A stretch of 64,000 nt of DNA from a virus (IMGVR_UViG_3300044645_002525:13139-77138), one strand, 5' to 3'. Positions 10,012 to 23,440 are shown, counted from the first letter of the stretch. Notes: a model not told the origin generated them from the letters alone. Numbers and translations: made by a program.

Positions 10012-10068
10012 ATATTAACTTTACCAACAAACATCGTTTATGATTTGTACAGTTATTCAGGACTGACT

Positions 10069-10602
10069 ATGGAGAGGCGCTGGCATTACGTCTACTACTC
10101 GTACGAGGAGTGGGGCCGAGGCTATATTGGCAAGCGCTCATCCAAGGTTCCGCCAAGCCAAGATCCATACATGGGCAGCTTTAAGGACAAGACTTTTAAG
10201 CCTACAAATAAAATTGTTCTCGGTGTTTTTGATACGGCAGAAGAGGCGTTAAGACACGAAGTAATACTTCATGATTTTTACGAAGTAGGCAAAAATCCGC
10301 ATTTTGCAAATCAAGCCAAGCAGACTTCATCTCGCTTTTGCTGGCATGGTGATTTGACAAAAGTGCTTACGCCAGCCGAAGAGCAGCAGCGCCGTTCAAA
10401 AATCTCGAAGAGTCAAAGGGCTGGATCGAAAGGTTTCTTCTATAAGCTTGTGTCCCCCAGTGGCAGTATTCATGTGACAATCAATTTAAGGCAATTTTGC
10501 AGAGACCATAAATTAACGCATCAAAATATAGACAAAGTTGCAAAAGGTGAACGCCGCCACCACAAGGGGTGGACGGCTAAACGGATGGAGCTAAAACGAT
10601 GA
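10069..10602 (+). CDS. GIY-YIG family homing endonuclease
   Basis: HYVYYSYEEWGRGYIGKRS...YMGS; C-terminal NLRQFCRDHKL...HHKGW DNA-binding module. Confidence 0.8.
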   Translation: MERRWHYVYYSYEEWGRGYIGKRSSKVPPSQDPYMGSFKDKTFKPTNKIVLGVFDTAEEALRHEVILHDFYEVGKNPHFANQAKQTSSRFCWHGDLTKVLTPAEEQQRRSKISKSQRAGSKGFFYKLVSPSGSIHVTINLRQFCRDHKLTHQNIDKVAKGERRHHKGWTAKRMELKR

Positions 10603-10883
10603 TGCTGCTCAAGAAAAGTGATGTGGATGTGCTTAAGATGCCTCATCAGCAAGCTCGTCTCCTGATTGCTTCTCGCATTAAAGAAGCCCGCCTTAATAGC
10701 GGGCTTTCTCAGAAAGACGTAGCTCAAGCTTTGCATACAAGTCAAAGCTCTTATTCACGAATGGAACGCGCTGAACTGGCTCCGGATTGCGTGCAAATTC
10801 GCACTCTCAGTGGTCTCTATGGAATAAGCGTATTGTGGCTGATGGGCTATCCCTCGTTCATTCTCAACACGCGAAGGGATTAA
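10599..10883 (+). CDS. XRE-family HTH transcriptional regulator
   Basis: RIKEARLNSGLSQKDVAQALHTSQSSYSRMER...SVLWLMG. Confidence 0.85.
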   Translation: MMLLKKSDVDVLKMPHQQARLLIASRIKEARLNSGLSQKDVAQALHTSQSSYSRMERAELAPDCVQIRTLSGLYGISVLWLMGYPSFILNTRRD

Positions 10884-11191
10884 TCCTCGTCCTCGTCATC
10901 ATCACGAAGGTCGCGAAGTTGATCTTCAATGCCCTCCATAATGTATGACTTCGCCATTGCCTCAATTTCAAACGTAAGAAACTTAGTCGGATCGAAATGA
11001 GGGTCGGGCTTTTCGTAGACGCTCATCACATAGATGTGAGTTTCATCGAGACGACCATTCTTGAAGCATTGCTTCTCCACTAGTTCCCATCGCGAAGTAT
11101 TGCGGTGTTCGTTAGCAGAAAGAATGGCCAAAGCCTGCATCACGCCAATACCTTCATCTTCTTGTTCGATGACGCGTACGTATTCGCTCAT
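10880..11191 (-). CDS. Hypothetical protein, acidic C-terminus
   Basis: ORF overlapping neighbours by 4 nt. Confidence 0.65.
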   Translation of the reverse strand: MSEYVRVIEQEDEGIGVMQALAILSANEHRNTSRWELVEKQCFKNGRLDETHIYVMSVYEKPDPHFDPTKFLTFEIEAMAKSYIMEGIEDQLRDLRDDDEDED

Positions 11192-11547
11192 TGGCCTGTA
11201 TTACGACTTTCTACCATCTTAATGATGCGTTTAGCCCATGCCCTCCCGGCATCTCCTCCCCATAGCAGCCAAGCAATATATCCAGCATCGTTCTCTCCAC
11301 CGCTTTTATTCTTCTCATGCCGAGAGAAGAATGCAGACATACGCTTGATTGTGGCATAGCTAATCTTGCTGCCACCAGCCAAATCACCAGCCCTGGCAAC
11401 GCCGCTACCAATACCTTGTTTGCCTGCCTCCTGCGTTGTTAAGCCGCCCTTGCCGTGCTTCTTGCGCAGTTCCAACCCTCGACGGGCAGCACTTCGCACG
11501 GCGGCGGGAGGGGAGAAACTCTCAGCATCTCCCCTCAGCGCTTTTTT
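11188..11547 (-). CDS. Head-module basic domain (RRGLELRKK...IAWLLWGGDAG), probably expressed by -1 frameshift from the upstream ORF
   Basis: Coding-like frame without its own ATG, open back to A-AAA-AAG at 11541-11547. Confidence 0.7.
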   Translation of the reverse strand, partial: KKALRGDAESFSPPAAVRSAARRGLELRKKHGKGGLTTQEAGKQGIGSGVARAGDLAGGSKISYATIKRMSAFFSRHEKNKSGGENDAGYIAWLLWGGDAGRAWAKRIIKMVESRNTGQ

Positions 11548-11789
11548 CCGCAGCTCCCATCCATTTCCTCTTCTTCTTCCTCTTCGCCAATCATCTCCTT
11601 AAAGAAGCCCATATAGTATTCGTCGCTCATGTCTTCTTTTGGCTTGCGCGTCATGCCAGCTTCAGACAAGGCAATTGCTAGTGCTTGCTTCGGACTCTTC
11701 ACGGCTTCGCCACTGCTGCTCTTCAGCTTGCCGCTTTTGTATTCGCGCATCACCTTGGCAATTTTTGCCTGCTTTTCCTTCTTGGTCAT
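11535..11789 (-). CDS. Small basic protein (DUF6496-like)
   Basis: KIAKVMREYKSGKLKSSSG..VKSPKQALAIALSEA motif. Confidence 0.75.
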   Translation of the reverse strand: MTKKEKQAKIAKVMREYKSGKLKSSSGEAVKSPKQALAIALSEAGMTRKPKEDMSDEYYMGFFKEMIGEEEEEEEMDGSCGKKR

Positions 11790-11816: not shown

Positions 11817-12533
11817 TCAATGGATGAATCCTATCGGAGCAGTGGCAATGTTCATGCCAGGGAAAAGCTTGTCACGATACAAAACCATGCCAGTGATGAG
11901 ACGCTCGGCAATAAAGGCCAACGCTCGCTTGTCATAGCCTCCAATACGAAGAAACTGCTCTTCGTGCTTATGCCAAATGGGAGCAAGCGCGACAAACAGA
12001 GCGCTCATGAATTGCTTGTATTGCACGTTGCCTCCTCGTGCCATATTGCAGCCAATAAAGCTATTTTGCTTCCAAATGGCATCAATTTCTTCGCGAGAGA
12101 AAATCCAACTCCCGGAATCGGCAAGTTCTCTAGTGATGACAGGAGCGTCAAAAGCTGAATGTCCACCATAAAACTGCTGCTCCAGCGTGCAATTGAACAG
12201 TGCAGGCTCGGGAAAATACAACGTATTTTCGTCGTACCATTGATCATTTGGCTCTAGCCAATTACGCCTGTATTGCGCATTGCCAATGTTTTTCTCATTC
12301 GCATTGAGAATCATCCAAGAAATACAAGACAGCTCTCCCCATCGGCTATTAAGCCGCGAAAGGGAAGCATTCTCATCATCAAACACATAGCCCTGTAAGC
12401 GGAGCGCTTCACGCTCCTCGCTCGACAAAGTATATGCTCCTCCCATAATGGGAACAATGGAAGAGCGGGCTTCATAGCGCACTTTCTCACCAGGAATGCA
12501 CACGGCATAGATGGTGCAATCAGACGGCTGCAT
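11817..12533 (-). CDS. DUF4422-like putative glycosyltransferase
   Basis: GELSCISW, IGNAQYRR, CNM, AFIAERL motifs. Confidence 0.65.
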   Translation of the reverse strand: MQPSDCTIYAVCIPGEKVRYEARSSIVPIMGGAYTLSSEEREALRLQGYVFDDENASLSRLNSRWGELSCISWMILNANEKNIGNAQYRRNWLEPNDQWYDENTLYFPEPALFNCTLEQQFYGGHSAFDAPVITRELADSGSWIFSREEIDAIWKQNSFIGCNMARGGNVQYKQFMSALFVALAPIWHKHEEQFLRIGGYDKRALAFIAERLITGMVLYRDKLFPGMNIATAPIGFIH

Positions 12534-13236
12534 ACACTTTCCTCGCGGACCAAAGCTCGTTGTAATTGTTCACACCTTTAGCGCCAAGACCAGTCAAGTC
12601 CCCGCCTCCTGCAGGCTTGCTCCAAGCCATGATCGTACCATCAGGCAAGACAAACCCTCTGTTCTTTTGACCATACGTGGGAGTGAGTTCCAGATAGTCG
12701 CCATAGACAAAATTGGCTTGACTTCCGTTAATAGCAAGCGCCTTGCCCAACAATGTTGGACCAGTGGGGCACAGTGGCGTGATGCCATAGTATTGCTCTT
12801 TGCAATTTGCCACAATCATTTCAATGGCAGTCTGCAAAGCTTGGTTATCAGGCTTGGAATAGAGCACAGTCGTAGCACACGCCCAACTGGTATAACTAAA
12901 GCGTTGAATATCGCGAAAGGCCAAGAATTCAATGCGGTCGCCAAGATCCACTGCATTAAAAGCCCTCACGCCAACATCAAAATACCAGCCACCAAGTTTG
13001 TTTAACAAGCAAAACCGCCCAAGATCTGCTTTGTAAGAAAATGGCACCAAGCAATCATATGCCCACACCACTTCTTCACCATAGTTCTCTGCAATAAAAG
13101 CACGCAGTGAAGCATCGCTGTAAATGACATGCTCCGCACTAGGGAAGCACGCATCAATGGTGCCAGTGGCGTGCTTAAGAAATGGGCTCAGCTCTTCCGT
13201 TGGATCAGTGGAAAGAAAGATTTGTGAAATCTGCAT
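12520..13236 (-). CDS. Glycosyltransferase, GT32/OCH1-like
   Basis: KADLGRFCLLNKLGGWYFDVG and TGPTLL motifs. Confidence 0.85.
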   Translation of the reverse strand: MQISQIFLSTDPTEELSPFLKHATGTIDACFPSAEHVIYSDASLRAFIAENYGEEVVWAYDCLVPFSYKADLGRFCLLNKLGGWYFDVGVRAFNAVDLGDRIEFLAFRDIQRFSYTSWACATTVLYSKPDNQALQTAIEMIVANCKEQYYGITPLCPTGPTLLGKALAINGSQANFVYGDYLELTPTYGQKNRGFVLPDGTIMAWSKPAGGGDLTGLGAKGVNNYNELWSARKVYAAV

Positions 13237-13241
13237 GGCGA

Positions 13242-14465
13242 TCAGGCGATTTTTGCGGGAGTGCCAAAGCCTTTAAATTCAGGCTCCGCAGGCTTGACAG
13301 CTAGTGTTTCATTCACTGCATCCTTGAGCTGCTGCTGAATATAGGGCCAAGTAAAGGGCTCTTCGTGGAGACGGTTATAGCACCATTGACCATGCTGCTT
13401 CAAAATGTCGCGATTCTCATAGTAATAAGTGAGGATATCGGCGGCGCACTCAGGGTCTGGCAATAATCGCTCAAGCCCATAGTTTCTGTCGGTTTCACTG
13501 GCATTGCATTCAATGCGAGGCATCTCATCAAAGATTTCAGCCAAGCTCGTATGATCAGGAACCACTTGCGCCACACCAGTGGCACCATGCTCTGAGTTGA
13601 CCAAGCCCCATCCTTCGCCAATGCAAGTGTTAATGCCAATATCAGCAGCGTTATACACTTGATTGAGTTGTTCAATGGGGAGGCAATTGCCCACTGAATA
13701 GTGCGGGCTTGTCAAAATAAGCTTGCCAGTGGCATCAAACCCTTCGTCACGTGCCACTCGCTTGAAGAGATCAATGATTGGCCAGCCAAGATCTTTTGCT
13801 CCCATGTTCAACCAAAGGCGAGCATCATCTTTGTCCTTGGCAAACTTGATAAAGGCTTTAATCGTCAGGTCAATGCGCTTTCTGGGTTGATTTCTGTTTC
13901 CGTTAAAGACAACAAACACATCGTCCGGTACTCCCAAGATCTTTCGACACTCCTTCTTGTCCATCGGGAAGAATTTGGTGAAGTCAGTGCCGTGACCGAT
14001 AATGCGAATGGGCTTTGTATAACCCATGATCTCTAGTTCTTTTTTAGCAAATTTGGTGTAAGTGGCCAAGCCGTCCCATTCCATCATTGGGGGAGTGAGA
14101 TTTGGGAACAATCCATACGAATCAATAGGAGTGTACACAAACCATTTGAAGCCAAGCTTCTCCCTAAGTGGCTTGGCATTTTCCCATAGACTCAATGCAA
14201 TCCAGATGTCGTTTGTAATCCATACCAGATCCGGCTTTATTGCTTGAATTACGCTCGCAATACGATGAGACCCAAAAGGATCATTCCCATGCGCCATTGC
14301 TGGATACATTTTGCAATGCTGCTGCATAGGAGAAGGGTCTCCGTGCCAGTTGGTGCATAACGCATGTACTTCATATTCCTCCGCGAGCGCTGGAATTAGG
14401 TATTCGGCAACTCGCCCAAATCCCGTTTGTACTCCGACATCACCTGCGTAGAGAATCTTTTTCAT
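13242..14465 (-). CDS. Glycosyltransferase family 4 (GT-B)
   Basis: TGFGRV, NRNQPRKRID, YNAADIGINTCIGEGWGL motifs. Confidence 0.9.
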   Translation of the reverse strand: MKKILYAGDVGVQTGFGRVAEYLIPALAEEYEVHALCTNWHGDPSPMQQHCKMYPAMAHGNDPFGSHRIASVIQAIKPDLVWITNDIWIALSLWENAKPLREKLGFKWFVYTPIDSYGLFPNLTPPMMEWDGLATYTKFAKKELEIMGYTKPIRIIGHGTDFTKFFPMDKKECRKILGVPDDVFVVFNGNRNQPRKRIDLTIKAFIKFAKDKDDARLWLNMGAKDLGWPIIDLFKRVARDEGFDATGKLILTSPHYSVGNCLPIEQLNQVYNAADIGINTCIGEGWGLVNSEHGATGVAQVVPDHTSLAEIFDEMPRIECNASETDRNYGLERLLPDPECAADILTYYYENRDILKQHGQWCYNRLHEEPFTWPYIQQQLKDAVNETLAVKPAEPEFKGFGTPAKIA

Positions 14466-14489
14466 AGGAATCACAAGACTCCCGCAATC

Positions 14490-23351: not shown

Positions 23352-23424
23352 GCCCGAATAGTCCAGCGGAAGAGACAAGCGACTTAAAATCGCTCCAGCG
23401 CAGGTTCGAATCCTGCTTCGGGCA
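23352..23424 (+). tRNA. tRNA-Leu(UAA), short variable loop, CCA not encoded
   Basis: Acceptor GCCCGAA/TTCGGGC, anticodon arm AGCGA-CTTAAAA-TCGCT, T arm GCAGG-TTCGAAT-CCTGC. Confidence 0.9.
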
Positions 23425-23440
23425 CTTTGCTACACTGATG

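What the first reader, a model, noticed from the sequence alone, without database searches (positions are those of the whole stretch)
11188..11789. Second programmed -1 frameshift, dnaX/IS-style, in a head-module gene
Seen on the minus strand: GAT-GGGAG-CTGCGG-AAAAAAG-CGCT-GAGGGGAGA-tgctgagagtt-TCTCCCCTC. That is an SD-like GGGAG, the A-AAA-AAG heptamer (11541-11547) in the correct phase just before the stop, and a perfect 9-bp hairpin (11508-11536). The -1 frame (KKALRGDAESFSPPAAVRSAARRGLELRKK...) is the downstream domain, which has no ATG of its own. Established: this three-part signal is the classic bacterial -1 frameshift architecture. Inference: a short DUF6496-like protein and a longer fusion are made at a set ratio, with an RGD motif right after the junction. 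I do not know of this being described for this gene family. The 4-nt spacer is shorter than typical.
Basis: partly seen in the sequence, partly recalled or inferred. Interest (0 to 1): 0.75.

Follow-up and report, generated by a model that had tools for sequence, protein, structure and literature searches.

The report
Conserved -1 frameshift in cyanophage head-region gene
A lake-water cyanobacterial virus and over a hundred of its relatives most likely make a small protein and, from the same message, a longer two-domain fusion by a ribosome slipping back one base; the mechanism is textbook, but this gene family has not been reported to use it.

Summary
On the minus strand an 84-aa DUF6496 gene (11789-11535) ends GGA AAA AAG CGC TGA. 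A_AAA_AAG (11547-11541) is in phase, and a 9-bp hairpin (11536-11508) starts 4 nt later. The -1 frame runs open to 11188.

Comparison supports a programmed -1 ribosomal frameshift:
- **Frame.** Of 144 unique homologous genes (S-CBS4-like cyanosiphoviruses), 113 are split, all in the -1 relation and none in +1.
- **Heptamer.** All carry A_AAA_AAG (84), G_GGA_AAG (24) or C_CCA_AAG (5) at the same site. These are three heptamers reported as highly shift-prone in E. coli.
- **Fused relatives.** Thirty relatives are true in-frame fusions without heptamer or stop.
- **Hairpin.** It is much more stable than synonymous recodings of the same peptide in split genes (median z -3.4) but not in fused genes (z 0.0). 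One stem pair covaries.
- **No separate start.** The GTG at 11499 is GTA or GTT in 74% of split genes, and 43 of 113 have no start codon at all. The predicted fold begins upstream of it.
- **No sequencing error.** Two DNA assemblies reproduce the six A's.

The upstream GGGAG is not conserved, and the RGD is largely a by-product of the stem. The function of both domains is unknown; both occur fused to prohead proteases. This is a new, well-supported example of a known mechanism. No protein data exist.

The parts
11535..11789 (-). ORF-A, zero frame: 84-aa short product. It has a DUF6496 domain, then an acidic Glu-rich linker, and ends ...MDGSCGKKR. The stop TGA is at 11537-11535.
   Evidence: Pfam PF20106 E 5.4e-9, 36.7 bits against a cut-off of 24
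11541..11547 (-). Slippery heptamer A_AAA_AAG in X_XXY_YYZ phase (codons GGA AAA AAG).
   Evidence: At the same site in 113 unique split relatives: A_AAA_AAG 84, G_GGA_AAG 24, C_CCA_AAG 5. All three are reported as highly shift-prone in E. coli (PMC5009743).
11535..11537 (-). Zero-frame stop codon TGA, one codon after the heptamer. Its last two bases form the base of the hairpin.
   Evidence: A stop lies 3 nt (95 loci) or 0 nt (13 loci) after the heptamer in relatives.
11508..11536 (-). Stimulatory hairpin: 9-bp stem GAGGGGAGA/TCTCCCCTC with an 11-nt loop, 4 nt after the heptamer. No U-tract follows, so it is not a terminator.
   Evidence: 93% of cells are paired in 92 sequences, and pair 21-37 covaries: AU 40, CG 34, UG 8, GU 2. 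Median dG is -16.7 in split against -6.2 kcal/mol in fused genes. Synonymous-recoding z is -3.4 against 0.0.
11188..11547 (-). The -1 frame continuation: 119 codons counting the two slip-site Lys, with the stop at 11190-11188. It encodes an unnamed ~105-aa all-alpha domain. The predicted frameshift product is residues 1-83 of ORF-A plus ALRGDAESF..., about 200 aa.
   Evidence: phrog_2859; 3735 representative clusters; AF2 pLDDT 89.9; strand at residues 10-11, first helix from 15
11497..11499 (-). GTG that ORF finders take as the start of a separate 103-aa gene. It is an internal valine codon, not a conserved start.
   Evidence: GTG 29, GTA 55, GTT 29 in 113 split relatives. 43 of them have no ATG, GTG or TTG at all in the relevant stretch. 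Codon-position entropy shows -1-frame coding upstream of it.
11554..11558 (-). It is probably incidental, being part of the purine-rich linker coding sequence.
   Evidence: No fixed spacing in relatives. 49 of 113 have no GGAG or GAGG 6-14 nt upstream of the heptamer.

Best explanation
This is a programmed -1 ribosomal frameshift site in a head-region gene of an S-CBS4-like freshwater cyanosiphovirus.

Most ribosomes translate the DUF6496 gene, read GGA AAA AAG CGC and stop at TGA, giving an 84-aa protein. A fraction pause with the Lys tRNAs on A_AAA_AAG, because the 8-9 bp GC-rich hairpin that begins 4-5 nt downstream resists unwinding. Those ribosomes slip one base back (AAA AAG to AAA AAA) and continue in the -1 frame through ALRGDAESFSPP... 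into a ~105-aa helical domain. The result is a ~200-aa fusion: DUF6496, a disordered acidic linker, then the C-terminal domain.

Shown by comparison:
- the signal, its phase and its spacing are conserved;
- the hairpin is selected specifically in genes that need the shift;
- there is no independent start for the second half;
- the fusion exists as an ordinary gene in relatives.

Inferred:
- the shift is ribosomal and happens at a useful rate;
- both products are made;
- the ratio matters.

The role of the proteins is unknown. Both modules occur fused to XkdF-type prohead proteases, and the C-terminal one also to portal proteins. I therefore infer proteins that act in or are packed into the procapsid.
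For: Window anatomy.

Closest isolate: Synechococcus phage S-CBS4 gp018/gp019 has the same split. It reads AGA AAA AAG GGC TAA followed by GGGGCGA..TCGCCCC, and the amino-acid match begins before the gp018 stop.

Frame and heptamer: of 144 unique genes, 113 are split, all in the -1 relation and none in +1. The heptamers, in phase, are A_AAA_AAG 84, G_GGA_AAG 24 and C_CCA_AAG 5. The zero-frame stop lies 0 or 3 nt after them. Downstream-domain nucleotide identity among split genes goes down to 52%.

Fused relatives: 30 are in-frame without heptamer or stop.

Hairpin: median dG is -16.7 in split against -6.2 kcal/mol in fused genes, p 3e-16. Against synonymous recodings of the same peptide, median z is -3.41 in split genes (103 of 113 in the top 5%) and 0.02 in fused genes (2 of 30). 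One stem pair covaries and 93% of cells pair, against 58-72% for slid controls.

No conserved start codon.

Third-position variation shows -1-frame coding upstream of the GTG. Homology and the AF2 fold begin at residues 5-12 of the -1 peptide, which is upstream of the GTG at residue 17.

The six A's are reproduced in contigs of two DNA runs.

The three heptamers are reported as highly shift-prone in E. coli (PMC5009743).
Against: - No direct evidence that either product, or the junction, is made. The RNA contigs found do not reach the site.
- The hairpin lies inside coding sequence, so part of its conservation is due to the protein. The synonymous-recoding control argues against this being the whole story.
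- The IMG/VR contigs are related populations, not independent lineages.
- Frameshift efficiency on these heptamers in cyanobacterial ribosomes, and the host's Lys-tRNA set, are unknown.
- The spacer of 4-5 nt is at the short end of what is usual.
- A few database relatives carry a 7-A in-frame version (L163; proteins P0008, P0100, P0279). The run can therefore vary, or be mis-assembled.
Confidence: 0.88

Rival explanations
1. These are two independent genes. The downstream domain is translated from its own start (GTG 11499), as annotated for S-CBS4 gp019, and the heptamer and hairpin are incidental.
For: ORF finders and the S-CBS4 record call it that way. 29 of 113 relatives do have GTG there.
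Against: - The codon is GTA or GTT in 84 of 113 split relatives.
- 43 of 113 have no ATG, GTG or TTG from the upstream stop of that frame to codon 25 of the domain, and none has an ATG.
- Sequence homology in 3735 clusters and the AF2 fold begin 5-12 residues into the -1 peptide, upstream of the GTG.
- Coding periodicity continues upstream of the GTG.
- 30 relatives are in-frame fusions.
Confidence: 0.03
2. Transcriptional slippage. RNA polymerase adds an A in the A6 run, and the fusion is translated normally from the edited mRNA.
For: The window and 84 relatives have a run of six or more A's. Slippage on A-runs is known in bacteria and in Thermus dnaX (PMC5009743). It may contribute a little.
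Against: - 29 unique relatives use G_GGA_AAG or C_CCA_AAG, with only three A's, at the same site.
- The heptamer phase is conserved, which slippage does not require.
- A hairpin selected at a fixed 4-6 nt spacing is a ribosomal stimulator.
- Six A's is short for efficient slippage (my own knowledge).
Confidence: 0.04
3. Homopolymer sequencing or assembly error. The real gene has seven A's and is a plain in-frame fusion.
For: One IMG/VR contig (L163/L065) and a few database proteins (P0008, P0100, P0279) read as the 7-A fusion.
Against: - Contigs of two DNA runs, at depth 30 and depth 5, span the run with no indel.
- 84 unique assemblies keep the A_AAA_AAG heptamer, and 29 others are split with non-homopolymer heptamers.
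- A zero-frame stop and a specially stabilised hairpin accompany the split and are absent from true fusions.
Confidence: 0.01
4. A decaying or recently broken fusion gene. Only the short protein matters in split lineages.
For: Fused and split forms are interspersed on a short-region tree.
Against: - The downstream domain is under strong purifying selection in split genes. Entropy at codon positions 1, 2 and 3 is 0.32, 0.21 and 1.24.
- It has no internal stops in 113 unique genes.
- All breaks are at the same site, in the same direction and on a shift-prone heptamer.
Confidence: 0.02

Closest known systems
E. coli dnaX tau/gamma -1 frameshift
   Same: A_AAA_AAG heptamer, a simple 3' stem-loop a few nucleotides downstream, and a stop codon close behind the site. 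Two products share an N-terminus.
   Different: In E. coli dnaX the shift truncates the protein (gamma); here it extends it. The conserved upstream Shine-Dalgarno stimulator of dnaX has no conserved counterpart here. The gene is unrelated.
Tail assembly chaperone frameshift of tailed phages (lambda G/GT)
   Same: A phage morphogenesis gene in which a small protein and a C-terminally extended fusion are made by a -1 shift near the end of the first ORF. G_GGA_AAG, lambda's heptamer, is used by 24 relatives here. The site is conserved across very divergent sequences.
   Different: The location is between the portal/glycosyltransferase genes and the protease/capsid genes, not between tail tube and tape measure. 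The proteins are unrelated (DUF6496 plus an unnamed domain). A selected hairpin is present, whereas lambda needs none (my own knowledge). In-frame fused versions of this gene are common, something I do not recall for G/GT.
IS3-family (IS911) OrfA/OrfAB frameshift
   Same: A_AAA_AAG followed by a structure, with the zero-frame stop close by. The fusion is the longer, functionally distinct product.
   Different: The IS911 stimulator is a three-way junction with an upstream SD (PMC5009743). That is a transposase context, not a phage structural module.
T7 gene 10A/10B capsid frameshift
   Same: A head-related phage gene in which a -1 shift near the end adds a C-terminal extension to a minority of molecules.
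   Different: T7 extends the major capsid protein by a short tail using a different shift site. Here a whole folded domain is appended to a small non-capsid protein.
Synechococcus phage S-CBS4 gp018/gp019 (NC_016766)
   Same: Orthologous pair with the same heptamer, phase, stop and hairpin, including a compensatory stem change. It is 78% identical in the downstream domain.
   Different: It is annotated as two separate hypothetical proteins, with no frameshift recorded. Its upstream protein has a longer basic tail (…RCKGYLSSLRKRRKKG).

Membership tests
Bacterial-type -1 programmed ribosomal frameshift site | X_XXY_YYZ heptamer in the zero-frame phase within the overlap of the two frames | tested here: met
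   A_AAA_AAG at 11547-11541 in phase. An in-phase X_XXA_AAG heptamer was found by script in 109 of 111 loci first classed as split. The four mis-anchored ones (L208, L221, L224, L140) show the heptamer on inspection.
Bacterial-type -1 programmed ribosomal frameshift site | The -1 ORF encodes a conserved polypeptide that lacks its own initiation site | tested here: met
   No conserved start. Homology, coding periodicity and the predicted fold all extend upstream of the only candidate GTG.
Bacterial-type -1 programmed ribosomal frameshift site | 3' stimulatory RNA structure at a fixed short distance | tested here: met
   An 8-9 bp stem lies 4-6 nt after the heptamer in all split loci. There is covariation. 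Stability exceeds synonymous recodings only in split genes and is much lower in fused genes.
Bacterial-type -1 programmed ribosomal frameshift site | Conservation of the arrangement in diverged relatives, with fused or alternative-heptamer versions | tested here: met
   113 split genes, all -1, with three interchangeable heptamers; 30 fused genes. Identity goes down to 52% nt.
Bacterial-type -1 programmed ribosomal frameshift site | Both products and the trans-frame junction detected experimentally | not testable with these tools
   No proteomic or ribosome-profiling data are to hand. The RNA contigs do not cover the site.
dnaX-type three-part signal (SD + heptamer + stem-loop) | Upstream Shine-Dalgarno-like stimulator at a conserved distance (about 10 nt) | tested here: not met
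   The window's GGGAG is 6 nt upstream. Relatives show no preferred spacing, and 49 of 113 have none at 6-14 nt.
Phage tail assembly chaperone G/GT | Position between the major tail and tape-measure genes; chaperone families | tested here: not met
   The gene lies between the glycosyltransferase genes (portal side in S-CBS4) and the protease/capsid genes. The Pfam hit is DUF6496.
Pfam DUF6496 (PF20106) | Match to the family model above the gathering score | tested here: met
   ORF-A residues 4-44, 36.7 bits against a cut-off of 24.
Modules of phage polyvalent / prohead-protease-fused proteins | The same domain is found in many architectures with XkdF protease, portal, ParB, 2H phosphoesterase, InPase or LPD domains | tested here: met
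   The downstream domain has 3735 representative clusters at variable positions. Partner families. BFVD matches to prohead protease, XkdF and portal proteins. Limnohabitans phage DC31 has the domain plus Peptidase_S78_2. DUF6496 is also found with S78_2. This shows the company it keeps, not its function.

The most novel reading that the evidence does not exclude
The frameshift cassette may be an evolutionary switch that these phages repeatedly gain and lose at a domain boundary. On a short-region tree there are about 11 fused/split changes and interchange among three heptamers. A switch of this kind would let a lineage tune how much free DUF6496 protein is made against the DUF6496-domain fusion. 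Both would be procapsid-internal cargo that is co-packaged, and perhaps delivered into the host, in a fixed stoichiometry. If so, this is a recoding-based dosage control for capsid-packed proteins, a role not described for phage head genes.
Probability: 0.2. Interest if true: 0.65.

Novelty: new member of a known kind. Interest (0 to 1): 0.5.

Why it matters
- **Annotation.** S-CBS4 gp018/gp019 and hundreds of metagenomic cyanophage genes are called as two genes or given spurious starts. They should be one recoded gene with two products.
- **A natural experiment on frameshift signals.** Three interchangeable heptamers occupy one site. A hairpin is kept only where the shift is needed and decays to background in fused alleles.
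- **A lead for function.** The site marks a pair of widespread, unnamed phage modules that travel with prohead proteases and portals, and whose stoichiometry seems to matter.
- **Recoding in cyanobacteria.** Frameshifting on X_XXA_AAG sites in this translation system has, to my knowledge, been little studied.

Tried and rejected
- **Function from solved structures.** Foldseek against the PDB gave a best E of 0.59. VIA-align against 48,161 chains gave a best Z of 4.5. Neither finds a relative, which does not show that the fold is new.
- **Function from family libraries.** Pfam at E up to 10 and NCBIfam gave nothing for the downstream domain. PHROGs gave only phrog_2859, of unknown function. The protein atlas gave unnamed viral clusters and a weak DUF6321 lead that I did not pursue.
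- **RNA evidence.** The four RNA runs hold only small parts. The two that I laid cover 11100-11295 and not the slip site, so they say nothing about expression or A-insertion.
- **Literature.** Searches for DUF6496, S-CBS4 and cyanophage frameshifts found no description of this site. The library is incomplete.
- **RGD as a functional motif.** Rejected: fused relatives have RDD, RGD or KED, and in split genes GGN is needed for the GGGG arm of the stem.
- **Hairpin as a terminator.** Rejected: no U-tract follows it.
- **Tree.** It rests on 330 nt and phages recombine, so the number of fused/split changes is indicative only.

Full report
**The observation**

On the minus strand the window reads ...ATG GAT GGG AGC TGC GGA AAA AAG CGC TGA GGGGAGA TGCTGAGAGTT TCTCCCC TCC CGC CGC CGT GCG....

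- ORF-A runs from ATG 11789 to TGA 11537-11535. It is 84 aa and matches Pfam DUF6496 at 36.7 bits against a cut-off of 24.
- A_AAA_AAG occupies 11547-11541. Its first A is the third base of GGA, which is the X_XXY_YYZ phase.
- The stem GAGGGGAGA/TCTCCCCTC (11536-11528 and 11516-11508) encloses an 11-nt loop. No U-tract follows.
- The -1 frame is open across the site and continues to the stop at 11190-11188.
- The 81-nt context folds into this hairpin at -30.5 kcal/mol. That is only mildly better than shuffles (z -1.9), so the single sequence is suggestive but not decisive.

**What the genome is**

The window lies in a 77,138-bp IMG/VR virus record with direct terminal repeats. Lake-water metagenomes hold it. 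The nearest cultured relative is Synechococcus siphovirus S-CBS4.

The gene order in S-CBS4 is portal, glycosyltransferases, gp018, gp019, gp020, a repressor on the other strand, head maturation protease and major head protein. The corresponding part of the window has the same order downstream of the glycosyltransferases. The protease at 10011-8818 matches DUF2213 and phrog_530.

S-CBS4 gp018 ends AGA AAA AAG GGC TAA. GGGGCGA...TCGCCCC follows, and the amino-acid match to the window's -1 peptide starts before the gp018 stop. The record annotates two separate hypothetical proteins.

**Comparative test of the frameshift**

Three scans of IMG/VR gave 225 loci. Together with S-CBS4 and the window they reduce to 144 unique genes.

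- **Split genes.** After four mis-anchored loci were corrected by inspection, 113 are split. In all 113 the downstream domain is in the -1 frame relative to DUF6496, and none is in +1.
- **Heptamers.** Every split gene has an X_XXA_AAG heptamer at exactly the same distance from the domain: A_AAA_AAG 84, G_GGA_AAG 24, C_CCA_AAG 5. The script confirmed the phase in 109 loci.
- **Stop codon.** The zero-frame stop follows after 3 nt (95 loci) or immediately (13 loci).
- **Known shiftiness.** The Atkins et al. review names these three heptamers as highly shift-prone in E. coli (PMC5009743).
- **Divergence.** Among split genes the downstream domain goes down to 52% nucleotide identity, with a median of 77%.

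**Fused relatives**

Many close homologues of 177-207 aa carry DUF6496 and the downstream domain in one frame. Their sequences run ...EEEEED-RGDAESFSPP..., without the CGKK junction.

At the DNA level, 30 unique genes are such fusions, with no heptamer and no stop. One contig (L163/L065) is fused through seven A's. A few database proteins (P0008, P0100, P0279) have the sequence expected of the frameshift product.

The fusion is therefore a bona fide protein. In split lineages it can only be made by changing frame.

**The hairpin**

The stem lies inside the codons for RGDAESFSPP, so coding constraint had to be separated from RNA constraint. Three results do this.

1. A 32-nt segment folds at a median of -16.7 kcal/mol in split genes and -6.2 in fused genes that encode nearly the same peptide (Mann-Whitney p 3e-16).
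2. I compared each gene with 200 synonymous recodings of its own peptide. Split genes have a median z of -3.41, and 103 of 113 are in the most stable 5%. Fused genes have a median z of 0.02, with 2 of 30 in that range.
3. In 92 distinct junctions, 93% of cells pair, against 58-72% for slid registers. Pair 21-37 is AU 40, CG 34, UG 8, GU 2, GC 1 and unpaired 7. A rare G-to-A change at column 20 is compensated (L208).

These sequences are related, so the shuffle counts are not probabilities. The split-versus-fused contrast does not suffer from that problem.

**No independent start**

- The window's GTG (11499) is GTG in 29, GTA in 55 and GTT in 29 split genes.
- No split gene has an ATG between the upstream stop of the -1 frame and codon 25 of the domain, and 43 have no ATG, GTG or TTG at all.
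- Variation is concentrated at third positions of the -1 frame both before and after that codon.
- Against 1.8 billion representatives the domain match begins at residues 5-12 of the -1 peptide.
- In the AlphaFold model (pLDDT 89.9) residues 10-11 form a strand bridge and helix 1 starts at residue 15. The GTG is residue 17.

**Not an assembly error, and probably not transcriptional slippage**

Contigs from two DNA runs, at depth 30 and depth 5, cross the A-run without an indel. The first may be the source sample. Only contigs were available, not raw reads.

The 29 genes with G_GGA_AAG or C_CCA_AAG have three A's. They exclude both homopolymer error and polymerase slippage as the general mechanism. 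A small slippage contribution on A6 cannot be excluded, because the RNA contigs stop at 11295.

**What is not supported**

- The GGGAG at 11558-11554 is 6 nt from the heptamer. In relatives, GGAG and GAGG motifs occur at all spacings, because the linker codes for Glu-rich sequence, and 49 of 113 have none at 6-14 nt. The signal therefore has two conserved parts, not three.
- RGD is RDD, RGD or KED in fused genes. It is largely imposed by the GGGG arm in split genes.

**The proteins**

The predicted products are an 84-aa short form and a fusion of about 200 aa (residues 1-83 plus ALRGD...).

A model of a relative whose sequence matches the predicted frameshift product (P0008) shows DUF6496 as helix, short hairpin, helix, followed by a third helix. 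The junction (residues 69-88) is disordered, and the C-terminal helical domain follows. The shift site thus sits in a linker between two folded modules.

The C-terminal domain is widespread: 3735 clusters at 50% identity, placed N-terminal, internal or C-terminal in proteins of 115 to more than 1500 aa. Its partners include:

- 2H phosphoesterase, LigT and Acb1-like domains;
- DUF5824;
- XkdF-type prohead protease;
- InPase, ddrB-ParB and LPD29;
- portal and capsid proteins.

DUF6496 is also found fused to the XkdF protease. In Vibrio and Limnohabitans phages the domain-bearing gene sits between the minor head protein and the scaffold/capsid genes.

No solved structure resembles it and no family library names it. 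I infer, without proof, a procapsid-associated or packaged role.

**Comparison with known systems and novelty**

Mechanistically this is the ordinary bacterial -1 frameshift. It shares the dnaX heptamer and stem-loop but extends rather than truncates the protein, and it lacks a conserved SD. It follows the logic of lambda G/GT or IS911 OrfAB: a small protein plus a C-terminally extended fusion.

It is not a tail chaperone, by position and by family. I found no paper that mentions DUF6496, or a frameshift in this gene of S-CBS4 or other cyanophages. The S-CBS4 record annotates two genes.

My verdict is a new, strongly supported member of a known kind. Confidence in the frameshift is about 0.88, interest is moderate, and the function is open.

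That note added no evidence.

Noticed in passing
window 11188-11191 (minus strand): The stop of the -1 frame domain overlaps the ATG of the next gene (ATGA; ORF 11191-10880, 103 aa, no family). This suggests translational coupling. S-CBS4 has the same pattern at gp019/gp020.
   Followed up: no
L163 / L065 (IMGVR_UViG_3300013131_000066); proteins P0008, P0100, P0279: A minority of relatives read as in-frame fusions through seven A's, or have exactly the sequence expected of the frameshift product. These are either real A6/A7 alleles or homopolymer assembly errors. P0008 is recorded on 7 contigs.
   Followed up: partly
window 11188-11520 (minus strand); proteins P0122-P0271: The downstream ~105-aa helical domain has 3735 representative clusters but no Pfam or NCBIfam model and no solved relative. 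It is a candidate for a new named domain family. It is typically attached to prohead proteases, portals, 2H phosphoesterases (including Acb1-like) and ParB-like modules.
   Followed up: partly
window 10045-10883 (plus strand): Two plus-strand ORFs sit between minus-strand head genes: one of 185 aa at 10045-10602 and one of 94 aa at 10599-10883. The 94-aa ORF corresponds to the S-CBS4 'transcriptional repressor' gp021. The 185-aa ORF was not examined.
   Followed up: no
window 11817-14474 (minus strand): Three ORFs lie directly upstream of the frameshift gene, on the side where S-CBS4 has its portal gene. ORF 12533-11817 matches the DUF4422 glycosyltransferase-like family. The other two are the 238-aa ORF 13236-12520 and the 410-aa ORF 14474-13242. 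S-CBS4 has glycosyl- and galactosyltransferases at this position. Another note of this scan covers the cluster.
   Followed up: no
window 23352-23425 (plus strand): tRNA-Leu (anticodon TAA) is the only tRNA found in the window. There is no phage tRNA-Lys that could bear on AAG decoding.
   Followed up: no
L002 1329-2123 (Limnohabitans phage DC31): A 264-aa protein joins the same domain (N-terminal) to a Peptidase_S78_2 (XkdF) prohead protease. The record annotates it as hypothetical.
   Followed up: partly
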